From Octopus sinensis (Eukaryota), in NCBI RefSeq assembly GCF_006345805.1, contig NC_043004.1, positions 93,620,001-93,684,000 of the forward strand: DNA of 64,000 nt, in the 5' to 3' direction. A program made the position numbers and the translations under genes. This document shows positions 1 to 21,505 of the stretch, in pieces (positions within the stretch are counted from its first letter, which is position 1; the number at the start of each line of letters is the position of its first letter). The notes beneath the pieces are model-generated. The model did not search any database and had not been told where the DNA came from. It saw nothing but the letters and a program-made list of their open reading frames with translations.

Positions 1-664
1 TCATCTGTACTACTAATAATAATAATTTCTAACATAGGCACTAAGCCATGAATTTAGAGGAGAGATTTGTGAATAAAATCAATGTAGTTCTTGAGTGATG
101 ATTTATTTTATTGACTACAAAACAAAAGGATGAAAAATAAAGTAAACTTTAACATGATTTGAATTTAAAATTGAGTCTTTTTGATTCTAACGCACTTGAA
201 ACTGCTCCTGGTTCTATGATTCAAACTCCTAGTTTTAAAATGATCTTAAAAATGCTTCCATCAGAATTTCATGTCACTTTATGTTCAAACTCCAGCTTAA
301 TAACGACAAAGTCATTTTCATTAACTCTGTTAGTTTCAAAATTAATTGAAACAAACAAAGGTTGTGGTATTTCAACAGAAATATTGTAACAAAAAAAAAA
401 AAAAAGTAAAATGTATGTAACTAAATAATGGCTTGAAATTTTGGCAAAAGGCCAGCAACTTCAGGCAGAAATCGATTACACTGATCCCAGTAGTCAACTG
501 GTACTTATTTTATCGACTTTCCTCCCACAAAAGGATGAAAGGTAAAGTTGAACTTGGTGAAATTTGAACTCAGTATGTAAAGACAGACGAAATACTGTTA
601 AGCATTTTGCCTGGCATGGTAATGATTCTGCCAGCTCACCACCTTTATGTAACTAAATATTATA

Positions 665-1205
665 AGGCACGTGGATCAGTTGTTGGAGCAACAGGCTCAC
701 AATCATGAGGTAGTGAGTTCAATTTCCAGACCAGGCTTTAGTATTGCTCTTTACTTTACGTTGCTCCAGTTCATTCAGCTATAGAAATTAGTTCATAAAA
801 AGCACCATCCGATCGTGGCTGTTTGCCAGCCTCGTCTGGCACCTGTGCCGGTGGAACGTAAAAAGCACCCACTACACTCACGGAGTGGTTGGCGTTAGGA
901 AGGGCATCCAGCCGTAGAAACATTGCCAGATCAGACTGGGCCTGGTGCAGCCTTCTGGCTTCCCAGACCCCAGTTGAAGCGTCCAACCCATGCTAGCATG
1001 GAAAGCAGACGCTAAACGATGATGATGTCACTGGTGCCAAGCTGTATCGGCCTTTGCCTTTCCCTTTGGTGGTGCGGAGAGGGGAGGTTGGTATGCATGG
1101 ACGACTTCCGGTCTTCCATAAACAACCTTGCCCGGACTTATACCTTGGAGTGGGAACTTTCTAGGTGCAATCCTATGGTCATTCGTGACCGAAGGAGGTC
1201 TTTAT
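665..1205 (+). mobile_element. tRNA-derived SINE (B-related head, different tail) interrupted at about 795-1026 by an RTE-like 3' UTR fragment
   Basis: tRNA-like head at about 665-735; an uninterrupted reverse copy lies at about 32130-32450. Confidence 0.7.
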
Positions 1206-1687
1206 TTAGGGATGGGGTGGTGACAAAACCATTACAGTAACTTAATGACATTAATACATGAACAGCAACAAACATTAACAAACAAGAAAGACACAAACTA
1301 TAAAGTCACAAAATATACATAACACTCATCCACCCCACCCACACGTCAAATTATTTAGTAAAAATAGTTTATAAAAACCGACACAACGATGATGATGATG
1401 GTGATGATGACGATGATAATTACAATGGTTTCTTACACAGCAAGGCCACAAATCCTGAGGGAGGGGTACCGTTGATTTAATCAACACTAATATTTTGATT
1501 AGTATTTCTTTTATTAACGAAGGGAAAGATGGAAATAAATCAACCTTGACAGGATTTGAACTTAAAATGTAAACTAAACACCGCAAGGTTTATTTTCTCC
1601 ATCCTTCCCTGGAAGTTCACCATTAATGAATAATAGTTAATTATAGTCACAATAATAATAATAATAAAAGAAAACAAACAAGAAATG

Positions 1688-1725
<38 letters not shown>

Positions 1726-2367
1726 CAAAGACTAAAATAGAAAAACGGTTTAATGTTATCAGTAAAAAACAAAAATAAATTTCTTTCATAAAAATAGATT
1801 TTGTTAATTACGAATTCAAATGAATCAAAGCAGACATGCAAAAGAAGAATTTAAAAGAAAAAGAAATGAGCAGATCTAATGTTAGTGGTGACTTGTCTCT
1901 ATATGTTTATCAAGAAGCCTGTTGAGTCAATTGAAAAATTAGGTTAGTAAAGAAGAGCAATATTGAAGATGCTTGACAAACAGAAGACATTGAAACAAAA
2001 AGAGACAGAGAGAGAGAGAAAGACTGAGGGAAAGAGAGCGAGAGAGAGAGAGAGAGAGTAGTAGTAGTATACAGATGAAAAAAAAAGAAAAAAAAAACAC
2101 AGAAACAAAGAATAAGTAAACGAGACAGAATTATTTCTTAGAGTAAAAGCAGAACAAACAACTGAGAAAGCGTTAGCATCATCACTGTCATGGTAGTTGA
2201 CAAAGATGGAGACAAAGAAATTAAATATATACAAATAAATAAAAAGACACTACAGTTTGGAATAGCTTTGCACACAGAACAGGCTTGCAATGTTATAAGA
2301 GAAATGAAATATTTATGCAAATTATTTTCAAGCATGCACTTCCATACATGCACATATATGGTGTATG

Positions 2368-2441
<74 letters not shown>

Positions 2442-2635
2442 TTCATATGCTTTTGTATAATTGGCAATTAGTACATAAAATAAGCAAATTTTAGCAGACA
2501 AGTAACTTAGTCCTATATATATGAGCTATGTTGAAATTGTCTTAAAATCCGCATGATAAATGTGATGGAAACTTATTACAAAAAAAAAAGAAAAATAAAC
2601 TTGAATGACCATGGTTCAAAACCAAGTTTTAGCCA

Positions 2636-2670
<35 letters not shown>

Positions 2671-3077
2671 ATAATATAATATTAGGGAGTAATCCAAACT
2701 TACAGGGAAAAATTAGAGTTAGGAGGATTTAATCCAATTTATCTTTAATTTAATATATATATATATATATACAACCATACATATATATATATATATATAT
2801 ATTGAATTAAACAATGGATTATGATGTTGATTTCAAAAGAAAATGCATAATAAACAATAAATGATATTACCACGATAAAAAATATATACGTATATCTTTA
2901 TATCCTACTTAACATGGATTTACTGTTAGAATGCCGTATTACTAGGAATTAGCCTTGAGAGATCCTCTCATATAGACATGTAGGTCTGAAAAGCACAAGC
3001 ACTCTACATCTATATGGGAAGATCTCTCAAGGCAAATACTGCAGTATCATTGTGTCCTAACAATACATTCATGTTAA

Positions 3078-3755
3078 CCCTTTTGATACCAACCCAGCAG
3101 AAACTGCGTCTGGCTCTGTAGTACAAATTGTAGTTCTAAGTAAAGCATTTATTTACAACCTGATTTATTGCTGTGGTTTCATTGGTGTGAATGTGTACTC
3201 ATATTTGTGTGCATTATGTAAGCAGATCCGGTTGATAAAGGTTCATATCCCATTTGAGCATATTCTTATATATAAAAGTGAGGTTGTGTGCGTCTGTCTC
3301 TACGATTAGATTCACAACTACTCCCACAATTTGCGGTGCAGTTTAGCCAAAAACAGGATCTTATAGTCATGATTCATATCGAGCCCTTCTGGGTATTAGC
3401 GCATCTACGATGAGTCTACGATTTAAAAAAATTACCATCATTTTTCCCATTTTTTAATGCATTTTTGGCATATATAAGGGAAGTAGCTCTCTAAAAATTT
3501 ATTATTAAATCTCAGAACGTAAAAAGCTACAGTAACACCCCCCCTTTGTGGTTAGCCATATTGAGATGGCTATTATACTTTACATCTTGTAGTTCAAAAG
3601 TTGTGAATTAGAATCTTCCACCAAACCTTACTCACAATTTATGTTCCTAACGCTAGCATAATGATAACTAAATTATTTTATTAAATTCTTTGCTATGCTT
3701 AAAATTAATTGAAAAAAATACAGAGCATCTCAACAGAAATATGGTAACAAAAGGG
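3078..3755. mobile_element. piggyBac-like MITE (family 2) interrupted by a 465-bp inverted duplication
   Basis: TTAA|CCCTTT...AAAGGG|TTAA; outer parts match 9642-9851. Confidence 0.75.
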
Positions 3756-4233
3756 TTAAGTAGAGTATAAAGATTACCATTCAGTATTAATACAGCTTCT
3801 ATGTATATACAGCTGAAAAACATCATGCTAAAGCAGACCACACTAGTGCAGGTACCAGGTACCACATAAGAGGCACCCAGTCCACTCTGTAAAGTAGTGG
3901 GCATTAGGAAGGGCATCCAGAAATAAAAATCCAAAATACACAGTGGAACTTGGTGCAGTGCACTGGCTTACCAGCTTCTGTCAAACCATTCAACTCAAGC
4001 CAGCATAGAAGAAGGATGTTAAATGATGATGATACATGTGTATTTGTTTTTACGTTAAAGTTACAGCAAAAACAATTGCACATTAGACTGAAGGATTACT
4101 CAGTACTTTTTGTAGAGTACAGATTTATTATTATTACTTAACAAGAATGATATTGATAGTGACTTTGAAGCTTCAGCCAGCTAGGCCATCATTGAACTGT
4201 CCAATGATGGCATAACTAACTGAAATTTTCATT

Positions 4234-4272
<39 letters not shown>

Positions 4273-4861
4273 TTAACTTTAATGTCAGTCAGTGTTAAAG
4301 AATTAGGAAATATAACATACCCATTCTAAATTATGTGTGTGTGTGTGTAACTATATCACACACACACAAATATCATGTGAGCAATTGACAAGCACTTGTT
4401 ACTGAAAAAGCTAGCAATTTTACATCATTGAAGTTTAGAAGAGAACCTATTTGTATGATAGTGTGTTACAGAAGAACTTTCTGGCAATGTCATTCATGTG
4501 ATGCAAACCTGATGTTAGCAAGATTACAGAGAATGAAACTAGGGGTCATTAGTAGTAAAGGTCCTAAAATTGTAAGAAGATTAAGTAGAACCCTCAGACA
4601 GGAATAAAACTCTGAGTAAAACACCTAATCAAGAACTGGTGAGACCTCCTGTAGTTGATGATGTCCAGATAGTGGCAGTGTGTATGTGTGTGTTTGTGTA
4701 TGTGAGGGGTTTCCTGTGGGTTGAGCTGCAAACACAAAGCAATTACCACATGCAGCCCTTTATCAAAACCTGGATCAGTAACTAATGCAGGCCAGGATAA
4801 TTAGGGGACTCTCATCCAAAATGAATCTCACATGTATTCTTACACTCCTACACACACACAT

Positions 4862-5008
<147 letters not shown>

Positions 5009-5641
5009 TGTGACTGTCTGTGTCTATGGTCTGCACAGAAATGATAACAACAGTGGATATGGAGTAATGAACAGGTAGTTCAAAACTTTATCCAGTAAGT
5101 GATTGTGCTCTAGAAGTATAGATGAGATACTGATCATACAATTATTTCTTCAAACATAAGGAGTAACTGTAGCAAACCTTTATATATATCTGAATATATT
5201 ATATGAGTTGCTGAGTTATCAGAAGAAGACAATTTTTTGATAGAACCTCCAAGACTAGTGGAGAGAAAATTAAGAAAAGATCCAAACTCAGACTAGAGAA
5301 CTGGCCCTAATATTTGAAACAAAGGGGATTTCACTAAGGCACCCACTGACAGGTGGTTGTTAAACCAGGAGAAAGATTAAATATTTGGTCCAAGAACAGG
5401 TGCAATTTATTTGCTGAAATTCCATGTGGTTTCTATCAACTCAATGTTATTCAAGAAGTCTGAAATGATCCAAGATATGGTGGAAGACACCTTCCTAAGG
5501 TGTCACAGAATGGGATGGAACTTGGAATCACTAGATTGTGAAGTAGACTTCTTAAGGTGTTGCACACTGGGATCAAACCTGGAACCAAAGATATAACTGC
5601 AAAGGAAGCCTCTTAAGCATATGGAAGTGATTTAGAAGTGA

Positions 5642-6037
5642 CAAGCAGTATCGCCCGGCGTTGCTCGGGTTTGTAAGGGAAATAACTATATAAGCATTTT
5701 TAGAGATGTAAAGTATAATAGCCATCTCAATATGGCTAACCACAAAGGGTGGGGTGTTACTGTAGCTTTTTACGTTCTGAGATTTAATAATAAATTTTTA
5801 GAGAGCTACTTCCCTTATATATGCCAAAAATGCATTAAAAAATGGGAAAAATTGATGGTAAATTTTTTTAAATCGTAGACTCATCGTAGATGTGCGCTAA
5901 TACCCAGAAGGGCTCGATATGAATCATGACTATAAGATACCTGGTTTTGGCTAAACTGCACCGCAAAATGTGGGAGTAGTTAGGAATCTAAATCGTAGGA
6001 GACAGACAGCACACAACCTCACTTTTATATATAAAGA
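5642..6037 (-). mobile_element. Non-autonomous Helitron, same family as 43776-44177
   Basis: Shares both termini and much internal sequence with the 43776 copy; 3' end reads CTTG rather than CTAG. Confidence 0.78.
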
Positions 6038-7048
6038 TATGACTCAAATGGGATATGAACCTTTATCACAGGATCTGCTTACATAATGCACACAAATATG
6101 AGTACACATTCACACCAATGAAACCACAGCAATAAATCAGGTTGTAAATAAATGCTTTACTTAGAACTACAATTTGTCCATCACTCTTTCTCTCCCTCTC
6201 TCTCCCACACACATACACATACGCACGCACAGAATCCATCATAACTACAAGGAGGAATGAAAAAAGAAAGACTGGCTTCGGTTAGTAACATAGAGGGGAA
6301 CGATGGGAGAGACTACAAAGTTGGCAATTGACTAGAAAACTACAAAACATTATCAATACACTAAAGAAACAACAAACAAGAGACAGACTAACTAATCAAC
6401 AACACTATTCTATAGTAAGTACCAACTCTATATTATCAACATACACTAATTAGTTCTAGCTGCTTTCATATATATTTTGTTCTTGCTTGCTTTGCCTTCC
6501 AAATCCATATCTAAACCAAACCAACAAAATATGATAACCACAGAACTTGCAGACAATTTGGGTTTTATACTTTGGAACTTATGATTACAGTGGAACTTAT
6601 AGATGATCAATGCTTGCATTTTTGAATAATACTTTGAAACAAGATTATTTTGTATTTTGACAATGAAACCAAAAGAATAAAAAAAAGCTCTATAATGTAA
6701 TCAGTAAGCTATTACCCATCACCAAAGAAAAAAAATATGGCAAAAAAAAAACAACAAAAAAAAAACTGATTCGGTTTAAATAGCAGAATGGCTTTTAGAG
6801 ATAATGTTATATTTTGTACATTTTTAGTATACCTGTCTGCTTTATATTGATTGCAAACATAATAAATATTTAGATTAAATAAGACTTAATGATAGCGGAG
6901 TCATTTATCAATTTAACAATGAAAGCAGGCAGAATTTAAAAAAAAAAAGCTAATAATCATAATAATAATAATTTTTTTATTAAAAAATAAATAATAATAT
7001 ATTGATCTAGCATAATCTTAGCAGCAGACATTTGTACTTAATGCTTAC

Positions 7049-7060
7049 CTCATTGGGAGT
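7049..7060 (-). CDS. Candidate 12-nt microexon (TPNE)
   Basis: CATTTTTGCAG|ACTCCCAATGAG|GTAAGC; phase 0-0, no stop. Confidence 0.55.
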
Positions 7061-7725
7061 CTGCAAAAATGGAATTTTGAAGAACAATGAGAATAGATAA
7101 GACTGATACATCTAAATTATGTTATGCAGATACTTGCGTGTGTGTGTGTGTGTGTGTCTTTCTGGTGACTGATTCTTCAAACAGACTCTCACTAAAATGA
7201 TTTAATACAATATTAAATTCTAAATAGTGTTCTACTAATTTCTTTCTTTTTCTTTAGATACATACATACCACTGACATATATGCCTACTGTTTTAGTGGA
7301 GTAAAAAAGGGCAAGTGGAATAGGGTGCTTTGGCAAAGAGTGTGGCATATATGTGTTACCTGAGGATCAGAAACTTGAAGCTAAAAATTCTAATTTGTGA
7401 TATTTCCACTTCAAAATATATCTATAAACCCTATTTCTTTTTTTTTGATTGAGTATTTTTTATTGTGTTCGTAAACACAAAATGTTTTTATGTGTGTGTG
7501 TGCATGTGTGAGGGAGATTTTGCTGCTACTTCTAGCAAGTTGAATGACCACATAGAGGTTCTCTAATTGATTTGTGATACATCATTCAAATCAATACTGC
7601 ATAGTATCAACATGTCTTGCCATATCTGTTACACTTTTTGTCTTCTCTTACTAATTCGGTTAGATATAGCTGTGCTGGAGTCCTGCTTTATTTAATCCAT
7701 TTTTAAATAAAGATATTACCTTTAA

Positions 7726-7945
7726 CCCTTTGGTGTTCAAATTTCTCTATTAAATGTAATACTTTTTCACTGAAATCGTTTTGAATTAACCATGCATTAT
7801 GTTATAGCTTTGAGGTTTCAATGATATGATTGTTTATTTTTAGAGTGTCACTATAGGTTAGGTGTGAGAGGCTAGATATGGCCAGTTTGAATATAAAACA
7901 TGTAGAATATTTGGGCCGGATATGGCCGGTTTAAACACTAAAGGG
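7726..7945. mobile_element. piggyBac-like MITE (family 1)
   Basis: TTAA|CCCTTT...AAAGGG|TTAA, 220 bp; related to 29392-29613, 35750-35969 and 39753-39973. Confidence 0.8.
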
Positions 7946-7999
7946 TTAAACAATATTATAACACTATAATATTTAAATTACGATAAATGTAAACAAAAT

Positions 8000-8370
8000 T
8001 TTGCTTTTAGAAGCACTGAGATGTATTGAAAGGTACAGATAAAGAAATAATTTATTCTCAAATGCAGAATAAGTACTTTACTATTAAGCTAAATGGCTCA
8101 CTGACAAATTAATCTGCAATTTTAGAACTTATAAATCTAGCTCTATAAGATGCTGTGTGTTAAATTCAAATTATGATGAATGTAATCATTTTACTTTTAG
8201 AAGCACTGAGATGTATTGAAAGATACAGATAAAGAAATAATTTATTCTCGAACGTAGAATAATGCTGAAAGAACAACAGGGACAGTATAAAATATCCATA
8301 TTTTGCAGAAAAATTGTCAGCGGCCACCCATGAGACTCAAACTCACATCCCTGTGATTACCAGTCAAGTG

Positions 8371-8403
<33 letters not shown>

Positions 8404-8790
8404 ATATGATATTTTATACTGCTCCTGCTGTTCTGTCAGCATTATTCCTAGGTCCGAGAATAAATCATTTCTTTATCTGTATCTTTCAATACATCTCAGT
8501 GCTTCTAAAAGCAAACTTTGCTTGTTTTCATTTATCATAATTTGAATTTAACATACAGTGTCTTATAAAGCTAGATTTATAATTTCAAAAATTGCAGGTT
8601 AATTTGTCAGTGGGCAGTTTAGCTTAATGGTAAAGCACTTGACCAGTAATCACAGGGATGTAAGTTCGAATCTCATGGCTGGCCACTGACAAATTTTCCT
8701 GCAAAATATAGATATTTTATCCTGTTTCTGCTGCTCTATCAGCATTATTCTACATTTGAGAATAGATTATTTCCTTACCTTTGTCTTTCA
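8000..8790. repeat. Head-to-head (fold-back) arrangement of a tRNA-containing repeat
   Basis: 8072-8306 is an imperfect reverse complement of about 8400-8640; TTTTAGAAGCACTGAGATGTATTGAAAG also repeats directly at about 8005 and 8195; a related fragment lies at 49571-49735. Confidence 0.85.
8612..8685 (+). pseudogene. tRNA-Thr-like sequence embedded in a repeat unit
   Basis: A-box-like TAGCTTAATGG, anticodon arm CTTGA-CC-AGT-AA-TCAC, T-loop GTTCGAATC, 3' end GGCTGGCCA; stems are imperfect. Confidence 0.6.
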
Positions 8791-9194
8791 CTATAATATT
8801 TCTAAAGGTGAGGAGAGGAAAGGACTACAGTTTCAGGATTAGTGTTTGTGTTTTAATAGTGAACATCAAGAATCTGCATTACATAATGGTTCTTGTTAAG
8901 AATTCTTTTACTAAATAAATGTGTATGAAAATATGTAATTCTACAATTTTACTTTCAGGTTCGCATTAAACAGTTTTGAAATTGATCAAAATTTTGGTTC
9001 TGAAATGGAATTTTAAAACACTTGATTGTCTTGGAAATAAAGATGAAAATATGATTATGTTTAAAGATTTATATTTTTTTCATAACCATGAAATAATGAT
9101 TCTAAACACATTGCAAATGATCAAAGCTATTCCAAACAGTAGCATGCAGGGTGTTCCTGTTTCTATCTGAGAAACACAAGAGATCAGATACCAT

Positions 9195-9231
<37 letters not shown>

Positions 9232-9346
9232 AGAGAGATCAAAATGTAGCAGAGGTGATGGTGGACTACATTCAGGTTTTGTAGAGAGAGAGAGAAAGAG
9301 ATAGATAGAGAGACAGAGAGAGAGAGAGATTGAGTGAGACACAAAC

Positions 9347-9385
9347 CTTGAGAGGAGTGGTAGCCTGCTCGAGAATGAAGCTTCC
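9347..9385 (-). CDS. Candidate 39-nt cassette exon (GSFILEQATTPLK)
   Basis: CTAATACTTTCCAG|GGAAGC...CTCAAG|GTTTGT; phase 0-0, no stop. Confidence 0.55.
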
Positions 9386-9641
9386 CTGGAAAGTATTAGG
9401 TCAATGTTTAAATCAGACCGTAAAGTATAGTCACAATGGAACAACAAGATAATGAGAAGATGGTCTAAGACAAGCAGTGAACCAAATGTTCCAACAATAA
9501 CCAATCTTTTCTTCCTCAGCTATAGTTAATCCTGCCTACCTCATACAGAATTTTAACATGCAATGCAGAAATCTATGAAAATCTTACATAGACATACCTA
9601 GAGACAGAAGCACACATACATACTCAACAAAATTTCTTTAA

Positions 9642-9851
9642 CCCTTTTGTTACTAACCCGGCTCTGGCTCTGTGGTAAAATGTCTTGTTTTCATAAGTTT
9701 TGAGTTAAAATCTTCCACCAAACCTTAGTCACAATTTATGTTTCTAACACTAGCTTAATGATAACTAATTTATTTTACTAAATTCTTTGTTATATTTAAA
9801 ATAATTGAAAGAAACGCAGAGCATCTCAAAATAAATACAGTAATGAAAGGG
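9642..9851. mobile_element. piggyBac-like MITE (family 2)
   Basis: TTAA|CCCTTT...AAAGGG|TTAA, 210 bp. Confidence 0.8.
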
Positions 9852-11577
9852 TTAAACATCTTTAAACCTGAACAGATAAAATCCTCGCAGGAGTGAATAC
9901 CATAACCAGTTATTTGAAGAATGAAAGAACATGTTTGTGTGTAACTGGAACAGTTGTCTATATGTCACTTTTGATTATCATTCAATGATCAGTATTAACT
10001 TGGATAGAAATATTCCATTTGCTAAAACTTAACATTTGAATATTGTTCCGATGTTACATTAAGAGCTGTTGTTCTTGCTACTGCCGTAATTCCAAGATGC
10101 ACCCCATATCTGACAGACAAGTCATCAAATAAATTCTAGTTTTGGCCATGCTGTCTTCAGTTACATAAAAGTATATCTATGACCGCATTATCCAGAGTAG
10201 TTTTCCTTTTTATTTTTAAGAAGGCAAGGCCTGATACCAAATGAGATTTGAATGATATCAACTATAAAATCTCTGAAATGTAAGTAAATGGACAGCAAAA
10301 AATGTAATGTGTGTGATATCATGATGGTTTCACTGTAGCAGTTGTTGGTTAGCCCCTGATCAATTCTGATCAAGCAAACTTATGATTAAAGCAGTGACCA
10401 TACTGTCTTTTTCAGCTTTTTTAAACATGTGTAACAATGACATTATCCAATGTGTCCTTCCATAATGCTTAAAGACAGCATCATGTGATTTCAGTGAGAT
10501 TTAGTTGCTATCTCTAGGTGGTTGGGTCATCACATAGAGACTCTGACATTAGCTTGTTACAACGATGCTTTTCTTTTTTAAGTGCTTGCAACAGGTGATC
10601 TTTTTATGGCTGGATGCTGTTTTAATTGCATGGAAAGGGGCAAGTAGAATATCATGCCTTGTCTGTAGGGGGTGACAATGCAATGGGTGTAGCAAGATTT
10701 AAGTAATCACCAAGTAGGCAGCAATTTATGAATTGGCCGCGGCCTTCGGGCTAAAACATTTTTAGGGATTTAAGGATATAATGATGATAATGATTGCGAT
10801 AGTAACATATAAAACACATGAAAGACTTGTGTATATATGTGGAGAATGTGTGCCATATGTAGAAGATATACATATATGTCATCTTCCTACTCCTTGTTGG
10901 TGAAGGTGTGTGGCTTAGTGGTTGGGGCATTCAGCTCACGATTGCATGGTTGTGAGTTCAGTTCCTGGCGACATGTTATGTCCTTGAGCAAGACACTTTA
11001 TTTCACATTGCTCCAGTCCACTCAGTTGGCAAAAATGATTAGTACCTGTATTTCAAAAGGCCAGCTGTGTCACATTCTGTGTCATGCTAAATCTCTCTGA
11101 GAACCACATTAAGGGTACATGTACCTGTCGAGTGCCATATTCATGTTAATTTCACAAGCGGGCTGTTCCATTGATCGGATCAGCTGGAACCCTCATCGTT
11201 GTAACCGATGGGGTGCCAGTTATTCCTTGTCACTATCATCATTTTCTCCATTTCTATTGCATGAATTGTTTAGTTCTGTTTCAGTACAGGAACAGGATCT
11301 CAGTACTGGTCATAGTCCTTCAATATGAAAATATGTATACAGATATCTTTTTCTCTCTCTCTCTCTCTCTCTCTGGTTTCATTCAATGTAAGTCCTATGT
11401 GAGGAATTCTAGGAAATATATCTAAAAGGAAGATTATAAGATAGACAAATGTATCTAAAAGGAAGATTGTAAGATAGACAAGTTGCAACATTCATGCCGT
11501 TCCTATTTAACTAAAATCGTCTAAACTAGGAGTATCAAAGCCAGTTTATGGCTTTAACTCATCAAGGACTTACTTAC

Positions 11578-11589
11578 CAGTGACACCAT
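11578..11589 (-). CDS. Candidate 12-nt microexon (MVSL)
   Basis: TACTTTTATAG|ATGGTGTCACTG|GTAAGT; phase 0-0, no stop. Confidence 0.5.
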
Positions 11590-14187
11590 CTATAAAAGTA
11601 CTTCAAATTTCTTAACTAAACTTCTAAGAAACGTAAGTAAAATTATCCAAACATTGCATGAATGACACCAGCAGAGACTCTTCAAGACACAAAACAACTA
11701 TAGAATGATTTGAGGCCCACAACTTTTCTAAAATACTATTTAAACACTATTAAGGAGTTGAGATGGAGAGGGAGGAAAAGACCTTAAAAGAAAAGCCCAA
11801 ACAAATGAAAAACACCTCAAAATTAAATTCTGGCAGATAAAATGGTGCATGCCTAGAAAACATCAACATCCAGGACATCATATTTTGGAACAGTTTTGAG
11901 AGATTGAAGAACCCAAAATGTAATACTGCAGAAAATCCTGCTAATAATTTTGCACCTAATCACAAGGTCATTTATGGTAAGAGAGAGGGGTGTGATTGAC
12001 TTTTAATTGCAGTATATCACTGGTACATTTTTTTTAACCTTTTAGACAGGAGGGGAAGTAGTGCCCATGGGTCTAACAGAGCCTCTAAGACCAGTAAGGC
12101 AAAAGATACTCAGACAGGAGACATGGACCAAATGCTTGTAACAGAGTGGATTCTGCTAAAGGCACCAAAGACACCATGTGATGGTTTTAAACTGGGAAGA
12201 TGGATTAAGACTACCACCCAGATGGGGCACAGTGGGATAAGCCATGAGCCAGAACAAATACTGAGAAGCATCAAGTTTGACACTTTTCAAGTTCTGCTAA
12301 TCCATTACTTTGGATTGGTCTTTTTTTTTTTACCCTGAAAGGATGAAAGACAAAGTTGACCTCAGTGGGACTCAGAATGTAGACAGTTGGAACAAATACA
12401 GGGAGATATTCTGTCCAATGCTCTAATAACTCTGCTAATTCATGTTTATTGAGCCCAATTGATAAAAGTTAAATTACATGACAGGATATTTAAATTTAGA
12501 ACCAAGTGTGAGAAAACTGAATATTACAATGTATTTAGTCAAGCACTTGGTGAAATATTGAAATATTAGTACCAATGATATACTAGGAGTTTTGTTTCAA
12601 TCAGCTTACACTGACCTAATAAATATTTGTCTTAGACAAAAACAAATGAAAAAGTTTAGATTCTAACAGAAGAGTGAAGAGAACTGCAAGAGAGAAATTC
12701 TATAAAAATATTGGTATCTCACCAGATATTAAAAGAGTGGGAGGAATCTCAAAAAAAAACCAAAGCAAAACGAGAACAAGAGAAAGAAAGTGGGGTGTGA
12801 GAAAAAACTAAAGATACAAATAATTACTCAATGGAAAATAAATGAGAGAAGGGTTTCCAATAATTTAATAACACTTTCAATAGACAAAAACACAATAAGC
12901 CAACTTTTGCTTAACAACAAACTGACTGAATGAATGACTTTGCCACAATATTTCTTCTAACAGTGAAAGCAACATAGAGAAAAACAAAGCCGGTATTTTG
13001 ACAGTACACAGACATACTGATAAACAGCAGAGTTGATAGAGAGTCAGAAGGAATTAATATTTGAATTTTTTTTATTGAAAATCAAAGTTATTGGGAAAAG
13101 TAAATTAAGAAAAGTAACCAAAATTAAACAAAATAGCAAAGCAATCTATATTTGGAAATCATAAAAATTTGTTTAAATAATAAAAAAAAAAACACAACAA
13201 AACAAGTCAAATGAGTAAATGTAAAGATGAACACGAGGTTAGTGATGTAAAATAATGTCAAAGGTGTAAAATGAGTCAGTTTCCTAAGTAGAAAAATATA
13301 CAAAGTCTAGTTAAATTTACTGACTAGTTTGAGCCAAGTTTTGAGCAAAGAACACATCCTCATGAGTAGTAAAAGAAAACTGTTGCTGCATGGGTGGTAG
13401 AGAGAGCAAATATATTACAAAAAGGACCAAAACAAACCAAACATTTTTTCCTTGCTGGGAGGAGTGATATCATGAGAAGATACCAAACTCACAGTGATTC
13501 CCAGTCACAGTTGAATGGAGTGTCCCACAGTACAAGATATATGGAAAATATCACAAACACCATATATTTGCATGTGCATGCATGCCTGTGTGTGTGTTGA
13601 CTTTCTGGAACCCAAGGTTCCATGCTGATAGAAATCAGCATGTATTCAACCATATTCCAATAGAAAGTATTACTCAATAGATTTTACAGCACTAACTATT
13701 TGTTCTTTTCATCTTTATAGCTCAAGCCTGAAGCAGTTTCGAATGTTAAATTTGTACTTAAAGACTGCTAAATATAGTTTACACCTGAAAGGACTAAAAG
13801 AAAATGAAATACAAAACATATGGTATCTAGTTTTACACTTCACTGCCTCAGTTAAAACCTTACAGAGAGTGATCCTGCTTTGAAAGTACCATTTCAATTA
13901 AACATATCCCTTCTATACACTAAAGTTAACTTCGTGTTTAATTAAACAAAAAAGGGGCAGTAAAGCAAAGGTTAAGTTTACCACAAGCCATGACCATGAT
14001 GTGTTTCGTTCTTATTGAGGTAATTCCACTTAACTGCTTTATTTAATGCTATTGGGAAAAGTATGAATGAAATAATTTGCATTATACTTCCTCTAAAATA
14101 TAGGGCTTTTCTGTCCTATCAAAGAAATATTAGAATTCTGTATGAAGTTAGATTTCTTCTACTATAAACTGAAAGACCATTCTACAC

Positions 14188-14199
14188 CTTGGAGAACGA
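14188..14199 (-). CDS. Candidate 12-nt microexon (SFSK)
   Basis: About 50 nt of pyrimidine-rich tract, then TTATTAG|TCGTTCTCCAAG|GTGTAG; donor weak at +4 to +6. Confidence 0.35.
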
Positions 14200-17100
14200 C
14201 TAATAATGTAGAATAAAATGAAAAAATGAAAGAAAGAAAATAAAAGAAGAAAAACTACCAAGAAATTTATGTGTCCTATATTACATACGGATACATATAA
14301 AGTAAAAACGTATACACACACAAAGAAACACAAACACACACAGAAGTATACTTAAGTTAATTCATTCTTTATAGAAATATATTAGAAGATATTTCAATAA
14401 GATGCTGTGGGACCAAGAATTGTCATAAAGTGTAACATTTAATCTTCAGTGATTCCAATAGGTGAATCATAATATCTACTTCAGGTTAAAGAGTGTTTCT
14501 AAAATGTGAGTTACAAAGATCAAGAGACATTGAGGATTTCAGATGAATGGCTGAGAGGGCAGAAGGTATAACTAGAATTTAAATAAAAATGCTTCACATA
14601 GGAGCAATATAAATTTTAAAAGGTGAGGGTCAATGTAGAGAACTGCTTAAACAGATCCTTTCTACATTAAGTGCATTCTTCAGAACTTGTATAATCTATG
14701 TAAGTGGATATCAACAATTTTTTTACTTCTAAAATGCACGGGTTATAGTAAACAGGAATTTCAGAAACACAGTTTTTTTCTTTCTTTTTTTATATCGAGA
14801 AGGTCTTTAACACAGCAAACTCTGCTATTGATATGAAATGTGCCACTTTCTATGACATTTGTCCCATCTAGAACATTTTACTGAAAGAAAAAATTCCCCA
14901 ATTACTAAAAACAAAGCTTAATAACATGTGAGAGAAAAATTCATAAGAAATTAAGAAAATAATGCAGAAGAATTAGTTAACTTAATTTCAAGATTTAAAG
15001 AGAGAAGTGAAAATGGTTGAATCCAAATCAAACAAATGTTAAACTTTCTCTACACAAACACACATTTATCATTAATAGCTAAATTGAAATTAAAAAGACT
15101 TTAAGATCAGCAAAGAATGTTTATGACAGATCAATGCTCTGGCTATCAGTAGGTATTACTAAGTTCAAAGATTGATTAAATGATTACAATTAAAGAAGAA
15201 GAAAAAGAAAAAAGAAGAAGAGCAACACAAACTAGACTAAGTTGAAGCCACAATTTCAAATACATGCAATGTAAGGCTACAGTTGTTTCAATAGTAACAA
15301 AAATATAAATAAATAAATCTCTGAAAATGAAATCCTCAGGTTAATCAAATATATTAGCAAACATAATTAGATCAAATTAACATTTAATATTCATAATTTA
15401 TATATATTGATAGATGGATGGAAGAATATACACTTCTACATTGCTATGTATATGTGTTTTTTAAAATGAGTTTTACTTTTTAAGTTACAAATTAAAATAA
15501 TTTCAGTTTAGAATTTTGTGTCATCACCATATAAGTTTCTCAGAGCATCAAATCCATAACTCTACTTGGGTTCCAGATTGGTATTGTGATGTTGTTTTAA
15601 GTGCCCAGGATATCAATGAATTCAGAAAGGGGGCCAGGAGAGAGTAAGGCCTTTGAAATTTGGATTACTATTACCCAGTTATTTGAAGACAAAAGTTTTC
15701 ATTTGTGTTTCAATAATTTGCATTAGAGAAGAAAATTTTCCTTTTAGCTGAAAGGTCAGAACCAAAACAATATGAAACACTAGTTTCAACAAATTCTATT
15801 ATAATTCAACTGGATTCACATACTCACAAATCATGAGTTCAAATCCACATCTAGTGGTTTGGTATTTCTTCATAGATAGAAACTATGGGAAAGCCTGATA
15901 AAGGTCTGCACTGCGATCACAAAGGCCACTCTTGTCACACAAAGTTACACTGAATCTGCTTGAGGATTTCATTAACTAACTTGTGCCTAACTTACGAGGC
16001 TAGAATACATGTGTATAACTCAAGAGGCTAGAATACAGCCAGTCTGTAGAATTGATAAAAGAACATTACTTGTATTTCAAAAGACTAGTGGTGGTCAGTA
16101 TGTTAGCAATCTAAAGTTCAGGAAATGTTCTTTATGGGGAGAAAATGTAAAATTTTCTTTTCTTCTTCCTCACAAGTCACTAGCAGATTTCACTTTACAC
16201 ATACTCTTCCATGACGTAAGCCACCACTAGTGTCTTCAGTTCTAGTAACTTATTTTAATGCTGTAAAGTACTAATTTATCAGTAAAACATAACTACTTCC
16301 TTCTCTTTATGGTGCACCAAATTCATTTTCAAGAAGCAAGCTAACATGATGCTATATGAAACAGCACATTCCTCCAATCACTTGTGGGCAGACATGCTGT
16401 CTCAGTACATTGCATCATCTAATCCTACTGCAGTAACCTCAACTTCTCAGAGATACCTGGTCTCTTGCTACCTTCACTCAGACTCACCCAACAAACTGAT
16501 CTCTCTTATATTATGTCCAATGTCCCAGGCCCTGCATTAACTACCACACCCAACCTTTCCTTCCCAAAGTGTCAGCCCTCTGGAATATCCTCATGGCCCA
16601 TGGTTCTCCTATAGTCACTAAATTTCAGGCGTTCAAAAGAACATTAATTGTACAGGCCTCTCTAATCTGAGAAGGCTTGTAAAAGCCATTATCATAACCC
16701 CTTGCTTCAGATCAAACCATGGATAAAAAAAAACAAAAAACAAAAAAAACACACAGCAATGTAGAAGGTACTTAAACTTTCAAGTAACATGTGCCACAAT
16801 AGAACTTAAGCTATAATATAGAATATATTAATCATCCATAACTTCAACAGAATTCTAAAGGAAAACTAAAACATTCATGTGTATACTATAAGTAACTAAA
16901 AAAGGTAACAAAAAAAAGAATTTCAATATTTAAGATGACTGTGAATATAATAAGATTAACTAACAATAGTGGAAATCTAAACTAAGATAAGATCATTCAT
17001 GTGTACAGTAGAAAGTAATAGAGAAAAGAATGACTAATTACTAATAAGTACAAAAACACAAACGGATTAACAAACAGTTGTATTCAAAACCTTGACTGGA

Positions 17101-17338
17101 AATATTTCTTCAACTAATCTGACTTCTCTGAGAGAAAAAAGTTTCTGTTTTTTTAAGATTGAAGTCCACAGGATTAGTACATGTATTGTATCTTTTGGTG
17201 AAGATGGGATGGGGGGGTGGAAACCATTTGAATAAATCTTTGACCAAAGACATATACAAATGATAAAAAAAACTATATTCAGGACTGAATACAGATAACC
17301 ATAACAACTGGTTAACAAATGGCTCACAGCTGTTTATT

Positions 17339-17723
17339 GTGGAAGCACTCTGTCGGTTACGACGACGAGGGTTCCGGTTGATCCGAATCAACGGAACAGC
17401 CTGCTTGTGAAATTAACGTGTAAGTGGCTGAGCACTCCACAGACACGTGTACCCTTAACGTAGTTCTCGGGGATATTCAGCGTGACACAGAGAGTGACAA
17501 GGCCGGCCCTTTGAAATACAGGTACAACAGAAACAGGAAGTAAGAGTGAGAGAAAGTTGTGGTGAAAGAGTACAGCAGGGATCACCACCATCTCCTGCTG
17601 GAGCCTCGTGGAGCTTTAGGTGTTTTCGCTCAATAAACACTCACAACGCCCGGTCTGGGAATCGAAACCGCGATCCTATGACCGCGAGTCCGCTGCCCTA
17701 ACCACTGGGCCATTGCGCCTCCA
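17339..17723 (-). mobile_element. Full-length tRNA-derived SINE (family B)
   Basis: tRNA-like head with A box TGGCCCAGTGG and B-box-like GGTTTCGATTCC; exact 14-bp target duplication CACAGCTGTTTATT at 17325-38 and 17724-37. Confidence 0.9.
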
Positions 17724-18377
17724 CACAGCTGTTTATTAGGACTGGATTAGAAATAATTTGAAGTGGAATGTTGTTATTATTGTTACTGTTTATTCTTGGA
17801 CAGTCCTGATTGAGATGACTAATAGTTGAGAGTGATCTGGGAGTAATTAGATTGTGAATCCTATCTGCCTACTGCCACACACGTTACACAAATGGTGTTA
17901 ATGGGTTTCTTTTTAATTAATTCTACTACTGCCATATGATTCTGTGTGTGAATGTGTGTATCCTTGTATCTCCTTGTCTCTGTCTTGATACTGCATGATA
18001 AATGTAAATGAGAGTCACTGTCATGGAAGCATTGTCGCAGCATCATTCATTTCCAATATTCTACAAAAACAGGTCTGGCCATGGAAGGGAATCCAGTCAT
18101 AGAAAATCTGCCTCAGCAAATTTCATCTGACTCATGCAAACGTGGAAAATGGACATTAAATACTGAGGATACATATATTTTTTATCTTTTCCTTGTTTCA
18201 GTCACTTGACTGTGGCCATGCTGGGGCATCACCTTGAATGGTTTTTACTTGAACAAATCCACCCCAGACCTTATTTTTAAGTACTTATTCTATCGGCCTC
18301 TTTTGGAGAATTGCTAAGTTACAAGGATGTAACTACCAACACCAGTCGTCAAGCAGTGATGGGGGACAAACACAAAG

Positions 18378-18421
<44 letters not shown>

Positions 18422-18903
18422 CGACAGGCTTCTTTCAGTTTCCATCAGCCAAATCCACTCACAAAGCTTTGGTTTGCCTGAGACTATAATGGAAGACACT
18501 CGCCCAAGGTGCCAATCATTGGGACTGAATCACACACACCTTGTAGCTATTCCATCAACTGGATTCATTATTCTATTATAAGTATCAGAAAAAGAAAAGT
18601 TTACAGAAAAGATTTCCAGTCAAGAACTTATCTAATATTTTAAAAAAATTAAGATGAAATGAGATAGGAAAAAAATAAATTAACAAAAATAATTAATGTA
18701 CTTAATGCAAAATCTTTAAAATCTAATTGCACAGTAAGAAACTAAATTACAGATAACTACATTCAACAATTTGCTAATTATTATTCACAAAATGCAGACT
18801 ACTTAGAATAAAAGGTTACTTGAAGATAAATTTGAAACTAATAATAATAAGAAGAAGAGTAAGAATAATATGCAAAACAACTAAAGAGAAAAAAAAAATT
18901 TAC

Positions 18904-19080
18904 CTTGTATTCAAAATTAGAAACCACAAAATAAATAATCTCCACAATACGACTAAGGCGTGTAAGTGGTAGGTCTGACCACCAGCTTTTCAAAACGGCA
19001 TAATCTGCATTTTTAAGTACCCACACAAAACAGATCAGGAGGTTGTGAGTGGCGTCAGCATTCAGCATACATTTTCTGGT
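18904..19080 (-). CDS. DOCK7: DOCK7-like exon 21 ([26 protein letters not shown]...SNFEYK)
   Basis: ATTTCAG acceptor, GTAAAT donor, 177 nt, phase 0-0. I did not find the next conserved exon in 1..18903. Confidence 0.93.
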
Positions 19081-21505
19081 CTGAAATTTAGACAGGATTC
19101 AAGAGAGAAACAATGAGCAAATTGTAAAGAGATATTGTCTGAGAAGTTATAGATGGGTAGATATCTGTGGTAGTCTTTTAGATTTGCAGAAGCAATAAAT
19201 AGTCTGTCCCCTAAAACCCAAGCGGTCTTTGATGATAATGATGGGATGATAATGATTATTAACAATGATCTTAGGTCATTAAGAATGAAATTTTGAACTG
19301 AAAATTTATTTTACTTTATCTCAACAAAAAGCAATGCAGTTAATCAAAGTATGCACCTAAATTATAAGCACAATTTTGCAATTTAATCGGTAGCTTATAT
19401 ATGCCGGCAGTGAAGAATTCTGGAGAGCAAGAGGTGATGAAATCACAAAAGGCTGTTTTTGCATCTTCTTCAGATTTGAAGTTTTTTCCTTGCAAAAAGT
19501 TGTCTAATGCCTGGAAAATGTGATAGTCAGTTGGTGCAAGGTCTGGTGAATATGGTGGAAGACAGAGTACTTCCAAGTTCAGATCTTGTAACTTGAGTAG
19601 CGTTCTTTTGTGCAAGATGTGGTTGAACATTGTCTTGCAAGAGAATTGGCCTGTCCCTATTGACCAATCTCAATTGTTTAATTGCAAGTTCACTCATCAT
19701 TTCATCCAACTGGTTGTATACATCTGCTGTAATTGACTTATCAGCAGGTCTCATGAAGCTGTAGTGGATGACACTAGTGCTGGACCACCAAACAAAAACC
19801 ATTAGCTTTTTTTGGGGGGTGAATATTCTTTTTTGGATTGTGTTTTGGTACTTTGTTTCTATCCAACCACTTTGTAGAACAATACAATGCAAAAATAGTT
19901 TGCTTTTATGTTGTGACAACAAAGAGCAGCAAGTGTCAAGACAATGTGTCATTTGATGCTCATTCAGTTTGTGTGGTACCCACTTGTCAAGCTTCTTTAT
20001 CATGCCAATTTATTGCAGATGGTCCAATACAGTTGGAATTGAAATATCAAACCTTGCTGCTAACGCAAGCATAGTTTGAGATCTATCTGCTTCCACTACA
20101 GTTTCCAGCTAATCATTGGTTTCAGGTCTACCATGGGGCTGATTTTCAAGAGTGAAGTCACCATGTTTTGAGCTGTCTGGGATATGTTGGTTCCACAATG
20201 GAACTCATATTCATAAACAACACAAATTTTTTTATCTATCCATGGGTTCACAAAAATTGATTTATAAGAGAAAACTCACAATATAATCAGACACCATGAA
20301 CTGCATTTCAAAAGTTATGATGTAACTCTTCAATGTTGTAAAACAAAGAATTGTCAGGATAAAACATTAGAGTTAACGACTGTCAAACTTGGTGTATAAA
20401 AAAATCAGACATTCCATTCTTAATGACCTGATACAAGGCCTCAAATTTGAAAGAGGGGCATACTTAATTACATAAATTTTTAGCATTTGACTAGTCCTTT
20501 GTTTTATCAACCACATAAAGTTGAAAGAAAATTTGCTCCTTCCACCTCTCATAAGATTTGAACTCAGAATGTAAAGCAATGTAATTAAGCACCATAAGCA
20601 TGGTTGAGAAGTTTGTTTCATAACTATATGGCTTCAGGTTGAGTTTCACTGTGGGACACCATGGGCAAGTGTCTTCTATGATAATGGGTGTGGTGGTGAT
20701 GGGCAGTGATCAGGATGACAGCTGTGATAGCAGTCTTAAGGACAGTGGTACTAATTAGTTATGATGATATTAATGTTGAGAATAACAATTAGCACCTACT
20801 TTTACTTCAGTCTCATGGACACTGTAATTCATATTCGACACTCTCTCACAAACACTCGAACCAGCAATCGCCATAGCAACATGTTGGTTGATTCGGTCAC
20901 CTTCTTCGTCTTGGTAGGAGTTACGAGAACGGCTGGTTAGGTTCGGGTCATACAGTTGAGGCAGTCCATCAATGACAATGCCAATTAAGGGCAGATAGAG
21001 GGCTGCCAGGCGAGCTTTGATTTCTGGGTTTGAATAACGAATGTCCAAGTCATGGTTGTAGAGGAGGTTACGTATGACATTGATGGCCTTGTAGTGGATT
21101 GTTGTGAAGCTGCAAGACATTATATTATAATAGCAAACATGAGGTAGAATAAAACATAAGGAAATAAACCAAATATTGATTATTCAAACATTGATGAAGT
21201 CGAATATCTCTATTTTTTACCTTTTACTTCTTTCAGTCATTAGACTGTGGCCATGTTGGGGCATCACCTTAAGAATTTAATTTGCTTTGCAGGAGCAACT
21301 GTTTTATCAAAAGCATACGCTATTGTTAAAAGCTCAAAATACGAGAGTAGAAAAACAACCAACAACTGATGAAGGGTCGTTCTTTATGTTGTTTGTCTTG
21401 TTTTCCATTTGAGTTTCACATTGTTTGAAAAATAGTTCATATTCCATGTATTCGTATTTTGTGTTTTTTTGTTGTACATGTTTCATGACGTCCTGTGCCC
21501 ACATA

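What the first reader, a model, noticed from the sequence alone, without database searches (positions are those of the whole stretch)
7049..14199. Cluster of frame-preserving candidate microexons in the giant intron after the FEYK exon
Seen: the phase-0 intron after exon 21 runs at least 18.9 kb, about twice the next largest intron here (about 9.1 kb). It contains several AG/GT-bounded, stop-free segments whose lengths are multiples of 3: 14188-14199 (SFSK), 13785-13793 (SFQ), 12927-12956 (KKYCGKVIHS), 11578-11589 (MVSL), 9347-9385 (GSFILEQATTPLK) and 7049-7060 (TPNE). Three have good donors (GTAAGT, AAG|GTTTGT, GAG|GTAAGC). The 12.5-17 kb stretch also looks poor in the SINEs that fill other introns. 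Known: neural microexons are a bilaterian program driven by eMIC-domain Srrm2/3/4 proteins and are enriched in GTPase regulators. As I recall, vertebrate DOCK7 runs FEYK directly into GKK with no insert. Inference: a lineage-specific combinatorial microexon cassette that diversifies this GEF upstream of DHR-2. Caveat: short AG..GT segments arise by chance in AT-rich DNA, and the SFQ and KKYC candidates are weak.
Basis: partly seen in the sequence, partly recalled or inferred. Interest (0 to 1): 0.72.

Follow-up and report, generated by a model that had tools for sequence, protein, structure and literature searches.

The report
Three optional exons in octopus DOCK7
A 44-kb intron in an octopus DOCK7 gene (a Rac/Cdc42 activator) holds three optional in-frame exons of 39, 243 and 72 bases that are already in public gene models and likely add flexible regulatory segments to the protein; only one of the six proposed micro-exons is among them, and the other five have no support beyond splice-like letters.

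Summary
All six segments exist at the stated coordinates, on the minus strand of a DOCK6/7/8-type gene. The intron is 44,043 nt; the median modelled intron is 1.9 kb. Only the 39-nt GSFILEQATTPLK exon (A) is shown to be used. Spliced contigs from two studies join it directly to FEYK, a retro-copy on another contig keeps that junction, and 7 of 15 listed octopod isoforms carry it. SFSK, SFQ, KKYC, MVSL and TPNE occur in none of these. Such AG..GT segments are no commoner here than in other introns (309 vs 326 per 18.9 kb); well-scoring ones are about twofold commoner. The real cassette continues outside the window: B (243 nt, conserved and skippable in chitons, snails, bivalves and octopods) and C (72 nt, Octopus). 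The 15 models show all eight A/B/C combinations. Decapods and a nemertean carry unrelated cassettes at the same junction; vertebrates do not. The site is predicted to be a flexible loop of the ARM domain. Verdict: a real combinatorial cassette, already annotated, not shown to be a microexon cluster. Neural specificity is untested. The scan noted a similar pattern in octopus CAD (e1-9828710).

The parts
20800..21109 (-). Constitutive exon before the FEYK exon ([11 protein letters not shown]...ETEVK)
   Evidence: Spliced to the FEYK exon in contigs of X1, X5 and X11; homology to DOCK6
18904..19080 (-). FEYK exon (21st coding exon inside the window); phase-0 donor AAG|GTAAAT opens the 44,043-nt intron
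   Evidence: aligns to human DOCK6 chain 9vm2_A positions 1249-1304
1..18903 (-). In-window part of the 44,043-nt intron. It continues past the left edge and there holds cassette exon B (243 nt, 81 aa, AKW...WEGIQRKS...GQ; G000:C8:93612584-93612826, L001:2584-2826), cassette exon C (72 nt, ITLDNILPFRPPRPTSAASLNVLL; G000:C8:93602150-93602221, L002:2150-2221) and ends at the constitutive GKK exon (G000:C8:93594713-93594860, L003)
   Evidence: Intron. B: maps at 100% from octopus isoforms, conserved across molluscs, not seen in the contigs laid here. C: one of two branches after exon A in X1, in 5 of 15 isoforms. GKK exon joined directly to A in X1 and X18.
14188..14199 (-). Candidate SFSK, 12 nt: unsupported; long AG-free, pyrimidine-rich acceptor but weak donor GTGTAG
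   Evidence: rank 39 of 487; AG-exclusion zone 53 nt, 85% pyrimidine; absent from contigs, retro-copy and 15 isoforms
13785..13793 (-). Candidate SFQ, 9 nt: unsupported; its 3' end looks like a strong acceptor followed by a poor donor
   Evidence: absent
12927..12956 (-). Candidate KKYCGKVIHS, 30 nt: unsupported, weakest score, has one upstream TGC
   Evidence: absent
11578..11589 (-). Candidate MVSL, 12 nt: unsupported; consensus donor, poor acceptor (AG 9 nt upstream)
   Evidence: absent
9347..9385 (-). Cassette exon A, 39 nt, GSFILEQATTPLK: real and optional
   Evidence: Joined directly to the FEYK exon in contigs of X1 and X18; same junction in the C5 retro-copy; in 7 of 15 octopod isoforms, absent from 8
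7049..7060 (-). Candidate TPNE, 12 nt: unsupported but the best of the five (AG-exclusion zone 40 nt, donor GAG|GTAAGC)
   Evidence: neither branch after exon A in X1 nor the X18 contig enters it
11500..16000 (.). Repeat-free intronic stretch holding four of the unsupported candidates; no confirmed exon or Rfam family

Best explanation
The 44-kb intron after the FEYK exon of this octopus DOCK7-like gene contains three optional, frame-preserving exons (A 39 nt, B 243 nt, C 72 nt), which are predicted to insert mostly unstructured 13-118 residue segments into a flexible loop of the ARM domain and so likely tune partner binding, phosphorylation or oligomer auto-inhibition rather than catalysis. 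Shown: exon identity and boundaries; A joined to FEYK; C included or skipped within one RNA sample; B present and skippable in gene models across molluscs. Inferred: free combination of all three in single molecules (models only), the loop location (structure prediction of a snail orthologue) and any effect on the protein. The other five candidates are most likely chance AG..GT segments, with SFSK and TPNE left open as rare microexons.
For: RNA-derived contigs: X1 gives FEYK-A, then either GKK (depth 8.3) or C (13.2); X18 gives FEYK-A-GKK. For X5 and X11, A inclusion is only inferred from bin depth (1.39 and 1.71 in 8859-9395). A retro-copy at G000:C5:~102990868-102991107 (about 91% identical) keeps the exon20|FEYK-exon and FEYK|A junctions, with nothing between FEYK and A, inside a 13-nt direct repeat. 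Among 15 listed of 45 octopod cluster members: none 3, A 4, B 2, C 1, AB 1, AC 1, BC 2, ABC 1; no other insert. Both B-plus and B-minus models occur in Octopus, Liolophura, Gigantopelta, Haliotis, Littorina, Babylonia, Biomphalaria, Aplysia, Argopecten, Mytilus, Ostrea, Crassostrea/Magallana, Ruditapes and Mya. In the AlphaFold model of Biomphalaria P0305, FEYK caps an ARM helix (residues 39-55). The insert and the stretch after it (most of residues 62-245) have pLDDT under 50, with one predicted helix on the invariant WEGIQRKS block. DHR-2 lobe A starts about 410 residues after FEYK in the ABC isoform. ARM-ARM contacts and a phosphosite in a disordered region regulate DOCK6 (PMC13503879).
Against: No raw reads were available, contigs drop rare isoforms, and tissues are unknown, so neural-only microexons could be missed. 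Only 15 of 45 octopod members were visible. Exon B was not seen in the contigs laid here. X13 gave no contig on exon A, and X14 only an unspliced one. Well-scoring short candidates are about twofold in excess (13 vs about 6 at 12 bits or more). SFSK and TPNE are the only two segments in the intron with AG-exclusion zone 40 nt or more and 70% or more pyrimidines (2 vs 0.6 expected, thresholds chosen after the fact). Gene models may chain junctions never found in one molecule. No functional data exist for any insert; the mapped DOCK6 tetramer contact (residues 918-924) is far in sequence from this site (about 1304).
Confidence: 0.8

Rival explanations
1. One reading: besides A, several of SFSK, SFQ, KKYC, MVSL and TPNE (or the 6-nt AACAAG segment at L002:2524-2529) are real neuron-restricted microexons driven by an eMIC-domain Srrm factor, too rare in bulk RNA to enter contigs or gene models.
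For: About twofold excess of well-scoring short segments. SFSK and TPNE have long AG-free pyrimidine tracts like the real exons B and C. Four candidates lie in a repeat-free stretch. Vertebrate DOCK7 has a neural microexon (PMC7935315, PMC12871342, PMC12626424 passages). The locus is a proven hot spot for exon gain.
Against: 0 of 15 octopod isoforms, 0 of 2 informative spliced contig sets and the retro-copy contain them. Only KKYC has a UGC outside the acceptor itself, and none of the five has a CT[AG]A[CT] branch point within 60 nt. Raw segment density equals background.
Confidence: 0.15
2. Exons A and C are young, nearly neutral exonisations tolerated in a disordered loop; only B is under selection, and the intron is large simply through repeat accumulation.
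For: A and C were found only in Octopus proteins among all those fetched. C has weak splice sites. The loop tolerates unrelated inserts of 13-111 aa in other lineages.
Against: A is identical and C differs by 1 of 24 aa between the labelled Octopus species. A is the main form in X1 and X18, and C the deeper branch in X1. Both keep frame. The intron is poorer in repeats (17%) than the region (25%).
Confidence: 0.2
3. The splice-like sites in the 44-kb intron are recursive-splicing (AG|GT ratchet) points for stepwise intron removal, not exons.
For: The SFQ segment ends in a strong acceptor directly followed by GT (score 14.0). The retro-copy looks like a partly spliced intermediate ending in the intron after A.
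Against: The donor after SFQ is poor (0.5 bits; lowest constitutive 2.9). Strong AG|GT sites number 2, 0 and 0 at three thresholds, against 2.1, 1.6 and 1.0 expected from other introns.
Confidence: 0.04

Closest known systems
Annotated octopod DOCK7 isoforms (XP_036361504.1, XP_029640058.1, XP_036361506.1 labelled O. sinensis; XP_052826042/45/47.1 O. bimaculoides; CAI97271xx O. vulgaris; GAB1600465.1 Argonauta)
   Same: Contain exactly exons A, B and C at this junction, in all eight combinations among 15 listed
   Different: None contains the five 9-30 nt candidates; the models carry no tissue or function information
Vertebrate DOCK7 neural microexon (15-nt HsaEX0020638 in PMC7935315; dock7 among conserved neural microexons in PMC12626424 and PMC12871342; passages read)
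   Same: Same gene family diversified by short optional exons. Vertebrate isoform variation (GQL, a 9-aa GTYTIASPP insert) lies about 45 aa downstream, in the same low-confidence excursion
   Different: Vertebrates have no insert at FEYK|GKK (135 of 138); the octopus exons are longer. The position of HsaEX0020638 in the protein was not checked.
eMIC/Srrm3/4-dependent neural microexon programme (PMC8797185, passages read)
   Same: Frame-preserving optional exons in a GTPase regulator; A, B and C have long AG-exclusion zones (77, 52, 133 nt) and A has a CTAAT branch point
   Different: Lengths above 27 nt, no UGC near the 3' splice site of A, B or C, very long flanking introns (7-17 kb); neural restriction and eMIC dependence untested
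Recurrent ('type I convergent') tissue-specific exons at the same protein site, e.g. the 18-nt microexon of fly sponge / DOCK3/4 (bioRxiv 10.64898/2026.09.05.749416; passages and one section read)
   Same: Unrelated cassette exons gained at one junction of a DOCK GEF in several lineages: molluscs, Octopus, decapods, Lineus
   Different: DOCK-C rather than DOCK-B; larger exons; tissue specificity unknown; DOCK6/7/8 not named in that paper's main text (2 'dock' hits, both DOCK3/4; supplements closed)
Human DOCK6 cryo-EM structures 9VM2-9VM8 (PMC13503879; abstract and Results parts 1-3 of 4 read)
   Same: Closest solved relative over the full length; the junction maps to about residue 1304 of the chain, in the ARM region
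   Different: Has no insert there as far as vertebrate DOCK6 sequences show; whether that loop is ordered in the maps was not checked

Membership tests
Neural microexons (eMIC/Srrm3/4 programme) | Length 3-27 nt | tested here: not met
   Proven exons are 39, 243 and 72 nt; SFSK, SFQ, MVSL and TPNE fit the size, KKYC (30 nt) does not
Neural microexons (eMIC/Srrm3/4 programme) | Actually included in mRNA | tested here: inconclusive
   The five short candidates are absent from contigs of X1 and X18, the retro-copy and 15 of 15 listed isoforms, but contigs drop rare forms and tissues are unknown
Neural microexons (eMIC/Srrm3/4 programme) | 3' splice-site code: long AG-exclusion zone, UGC near the site, long pyrimidine tract, CUAAY branch point | tested here: inconclusive
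   No candidate has all four; SFSK and TPNE have zone and tract only, KKYC zone and UGC, MVSL none
Neural microexons (eMIC/Srrm3/4 programme) | Neuron-enriched inclusion and dependence on an eMIC-domain protein | not testable with these tools
   Runs carry no tissue labels or raw reads
Neural microexons (eMIC/Srrm3/4 programme) | Conservation peak in related genomes | not testable with these tools
   No related genome is held; at protein level the five peptides occur as inserts at this junction in no fetched mollusc protein
Alternative cassette exons | AG/GT-bounded, frame-preserving, found both included and skipped | tested here: met
   A: included in contigs and 7 of 15 models, skipped in 8. 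C: both forms within X1. B: both forms in models of 14 mollusc genera or genus groups
Alternative cassette exons | Independent combination in single transcripts | tested here: inconclusive
   All 8 combinations in 15 models; only A and A+C seen in contigs
DOCK-C subfamily (DOCK6/7/8) | DOCK_C-D_N, DOCK-C2 (DHR-1) and DHR-2 lobes A-C; closest to DOCK6/7/8 | tested here: met
   Pfam scan of P0255; PDB best hit DOCK6; exons map to this locus
Processed (retro) pseudogene fragment, G000:C5 | Exact exon-exon junctions and target-site duplication | tested here: met
   Two junctions and a 13-nt flanking direct repeat; stop codons and a 4-nt deletion
Processed (retro) pseudogene fragment, G000:C5 | 3' poly(A) tail | tested here: not met
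   Ends 11-12 nt into the intron after exon A, which fits a partly spliced template
Recursive splice sites | Strong acceptor directly followed by a strong donor, above background | tested here: not met

The most novel reading that the evidence does not exclude
The FEYK|GKK junction of DOCK-C GEFs is an exon-gain hot spot used independently by molluscs, octopuses, decapods and nemerteans to bolt proline-rich and phospho-motif modules onto the ARM domain. In octopus neurons the three annotated exons are joined by unannotated true microexons (SFSK, TPNE or the 6-nt AACAAG segment), giving a splicing code of 16-64 isoforms that sets DOCK7 partner choice and auto-inhibition.
Probability: 0.12. Interest if true: 0.62.

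Novelty: new member of a known kind. Interest (0 to 1): 0.3.

Why it matters
As found, this is ordinary alternative splicing that is already in public gene models, so the gain is modest. Two things add some value. An 81-aa optional exon has been kept, and kept skippable, from chitons to octopuses, with an invariant WEGIQRKS-type block of no known family (no Pfam or Atlas hit). Several protostome lineages have also gained unrelated cassettes at one junction that vertebrates and most listed insect and chelicerate proteins leave empty. That gives a defined test of whether splicing retunes DOCK-C auto-inhibition or partners. Four searches of the held library found no paper describing this cassette; closed bioRxiv supplements may list it.

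Tried and rejected
Laying four runs on window 5100-21200 was swamped by repeat-derived contigs; its joint and loose-end tables were uninformative, and lack of cover at the five candidates there is not used as evidence. No holder was on record as RNA; spliced junctions show that X1 and X18 contigs are transcript-derived. X13 laid nothing on exon A. Homologue searches returned mostly vertebrates; the third reached molluscs. A second cluster look-up returned the same 15 octopod members. The 50%-representative search gave mostly genomic read-throughs at FEYK, which only shows that the intron position is widespread. Recursive splicing was rejected. Rfam found nothing in the repeat-free stretch. No second copy of the GKK exon or exon C was found in the genome. 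Exon B had no Pfam or Atlas match. The splice model was trained on 37 of 41 modelled introns; four with doubtful boundaries were dropped. No complex prediction or fold search was run. No squid or cuttlefish DOCK7 was retrieved under a name, so the age of A and C within cephalopods is open.


Full report
Observation. All six segments are present at the given coordinates, read on the minus strand, with AG before and GT after. They lie in a DOCK6/7/8-type gene. The window is G000:C8:93620001-93684000. Using neighbouring stretches, I modelled 41 introns. The one after the FEYK exon (window 19080-18904) runs 44,043 nt to the GKK exon at C8:93594860, 25 kb left of the window; the next largest is 9,096 and the median 1,918. 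The 12.5-17 kb stretch has no self-BLAST repeat cover, against a 24% median over 436 windows.

Chance. A splice model trained on 37 of the gene's introns ranks the candidates 3 (GSF), 8 (TPNE), 11 (SFQ), 20 (MVSL), 39 (SFSK) and 68 (KKYC) among 487, counting from 0. Raw AG..GT, 3n, stop-free segments of 9-30 nt number 309 in the in-window part, against 326 per equal length of the other introns. At each candidate's score the excess is about twofold; for 6-51 nt segments at 12 bits or more it is 13 against 6.2 (other introns) and 5.7 (20 block shuffles). The model is weak for alternative exons: the real exon C scores -2.4 and 0.6. SFSK and TPNE are the only two segments with both a long AG-free zone and a pyrimidine-rich tract (0.6 expected; thresholds set after the fact). 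So chance explains most of the cluster but does not exclude one or two real rare exons.

Transcript evidence. Twenty runs from eight studies hold the upstream exon; all are contigs with no tissue labels. Six were laid. On exon A (X1, X14, X18, X13), X1 and X18 join the FEYK exon end directly to A. X18 continues into GKK. X1 branches into GKK (depth 8.3) or a 131-nt contig (depth 13.2) whose insert is 72 nt and maps to an AG/GT exon at L002:2150-2221. X14 gave only an unspliced contig ending at A's 3' end; X13 gave none. For X5 and X11, inclusion of A is inferred from bin depth only. A second genomic hit on contig C5 is a retro-fragment with the exon20|FEYK-exon and FEYK|A junctions, 11-12 nt of the following intron and a 13-nt flanking direct repeat. 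It is independent, older evidence for the FEYK|A junction without SFSK, SFQ, KKYC or MVSL.

Gene models and relatives. Fifteen of 45 octopod cluster members could be read. Between FEYK and GKK they hold only A, B (243 nt, L001:2584-2826) and C, in all eight combinations: none 3, A 4, B 2, C 1, AB 1, AC 1, BC 2, ABC 1. This junction is the main length-variable site among them. B is shared by chiton, gastropods and bivalves (38-57% identity to the octopus exon, 13 invariant columns in 11 sequences), with skip forms in the same genera. A and C were found only in Octopus proteins; no named squid or cuttlefish protein was retrieved. Decapods and Lineus carry their own unrelated one- or two-exon cassettes here, while 135 of 138 mostly vertebrate proteins have none.

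Mechanism. Shown: three in-frame exons, with inclusion and skipping of C in one sample and of A and B across models. Predicted: in an AlphaFold model of the snail orthologue fragment P0305 (65-row alignment, mean pLDDT 69), FEYK caps an ARM helix and the insert begins a low-confidence excursion of about 185 residues, with one helix on the WEGIQRKS block. The site is about 410 residues before DHR-2 lobe A in the longest isoform and near residue 1304 of the DOCK6 chain. In DOCK6, ARM-ARM contacts hold an auto-inhibited tetramer, and an inactivating phosphosite lies in a disordered region (PMC13503879). Inferred: the inserts add docking or phosphorylation motifs (C has PFRPPR, fitting PxxPxR and PxxxPR patterns recalled as SH3 ligands; B has conserved Ser/Thr-rich and acidic-Trp blocks) and so tune partners, localisation or oligomer state, not the catalytic site. 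No step of this was tested.

Comparison. It works like other alternative cassettes in DOCK GEFs. It is not shown to belong to the neural microexon programme: the proven exons exceed 3-27 nt (PMC7935315 abstract), lack the near-site UGC described for eMIC targets (PMC8797185 passages), and tissue data are missing. Vertebrate DOCK7 does carry a neural microexon (passages). Recurrent exon gain at one protein site is a described pattern, including in DOCK3/4 (bioRxiv 10.64898/2026.09.05.749416; its supplements are closed and might list this gene). Four searches found no paper on this cassette. An unreviewed earlier scan note reports the same outcome for octopus CAD (e1-9828710; not checked here).

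Verdict. One of six candidates is a real 39-nt optional exon, in a three-exon combinatorial cassette that is already annotated; the other five are probably chance, with SFSK and TPNE open. Novelty: new member of a known kind. Interest 0.3.

Noticed in passing
G000:C5:~102990868-102991107 (L014): Retro-copied fragment of this gene made from a partly spliced transcript: two exon junctions, then 11-12 nt of the intron after exon A, no poly(A), 13-nt flanking direct repeat, about 9% diverged.
   Followed up: yes
L002:2524-2529, minus strand (17.5 kb left of the window): 6-nt segment AACAAG (NK) has the best splice score in the whole intron (20.7 bits), 300 nt before exon C, but a competing AG 4 nt upstream; in no contig or model seen.
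   Followed up: partly
window 11500-16000: Repeat-free stretch (lowest about 1% of the 224-kb region) with no confirmed exon or RNA family; may hold splicing-regulatory sequence.
   Followed up: partly
Proteins P0158, P0185, P0547, P0192, P0328, P0144, P0206, P0226: Unrelated inserts at the same junction: decapods 72-75 and 23 aa (singly or together), Lineus 17 and 48 aa, Argopecten 13 aa, Strigamia 50 aa, Lamellibrachia 42 aa. PxxP-type motifs occur in octopus C, the decapod long insert and the Lineus long insert (motif classes recalled, not tested).
   Followed up: partly
Proteins P0211/P0326 (Aplysia), P0195/P0324 (Haliotis): 2-aa variants at the edges of exon B (HD before, VQ after), either 6-nt microexons or tandem splice sites.
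   Followed up: no
window ~50670-50700: Three models labelled O. sinensis carry a 10-aa longer version at the start of this exon, next to the 9.1-kb intron.
   Followed up: no
window 19340-20010: Broken ORFs resembling a mariner/Tc1 transposase (resemblance recalled from memory) in the intron before the FEYK exon.
   Followed up: no
window 62662-62780 (-) and 8613-8684 (+): Full-length 5S rRNA match (91 bits) and a weak tRNA-like match (32.5 bits), both intronic.
   Followed up: no
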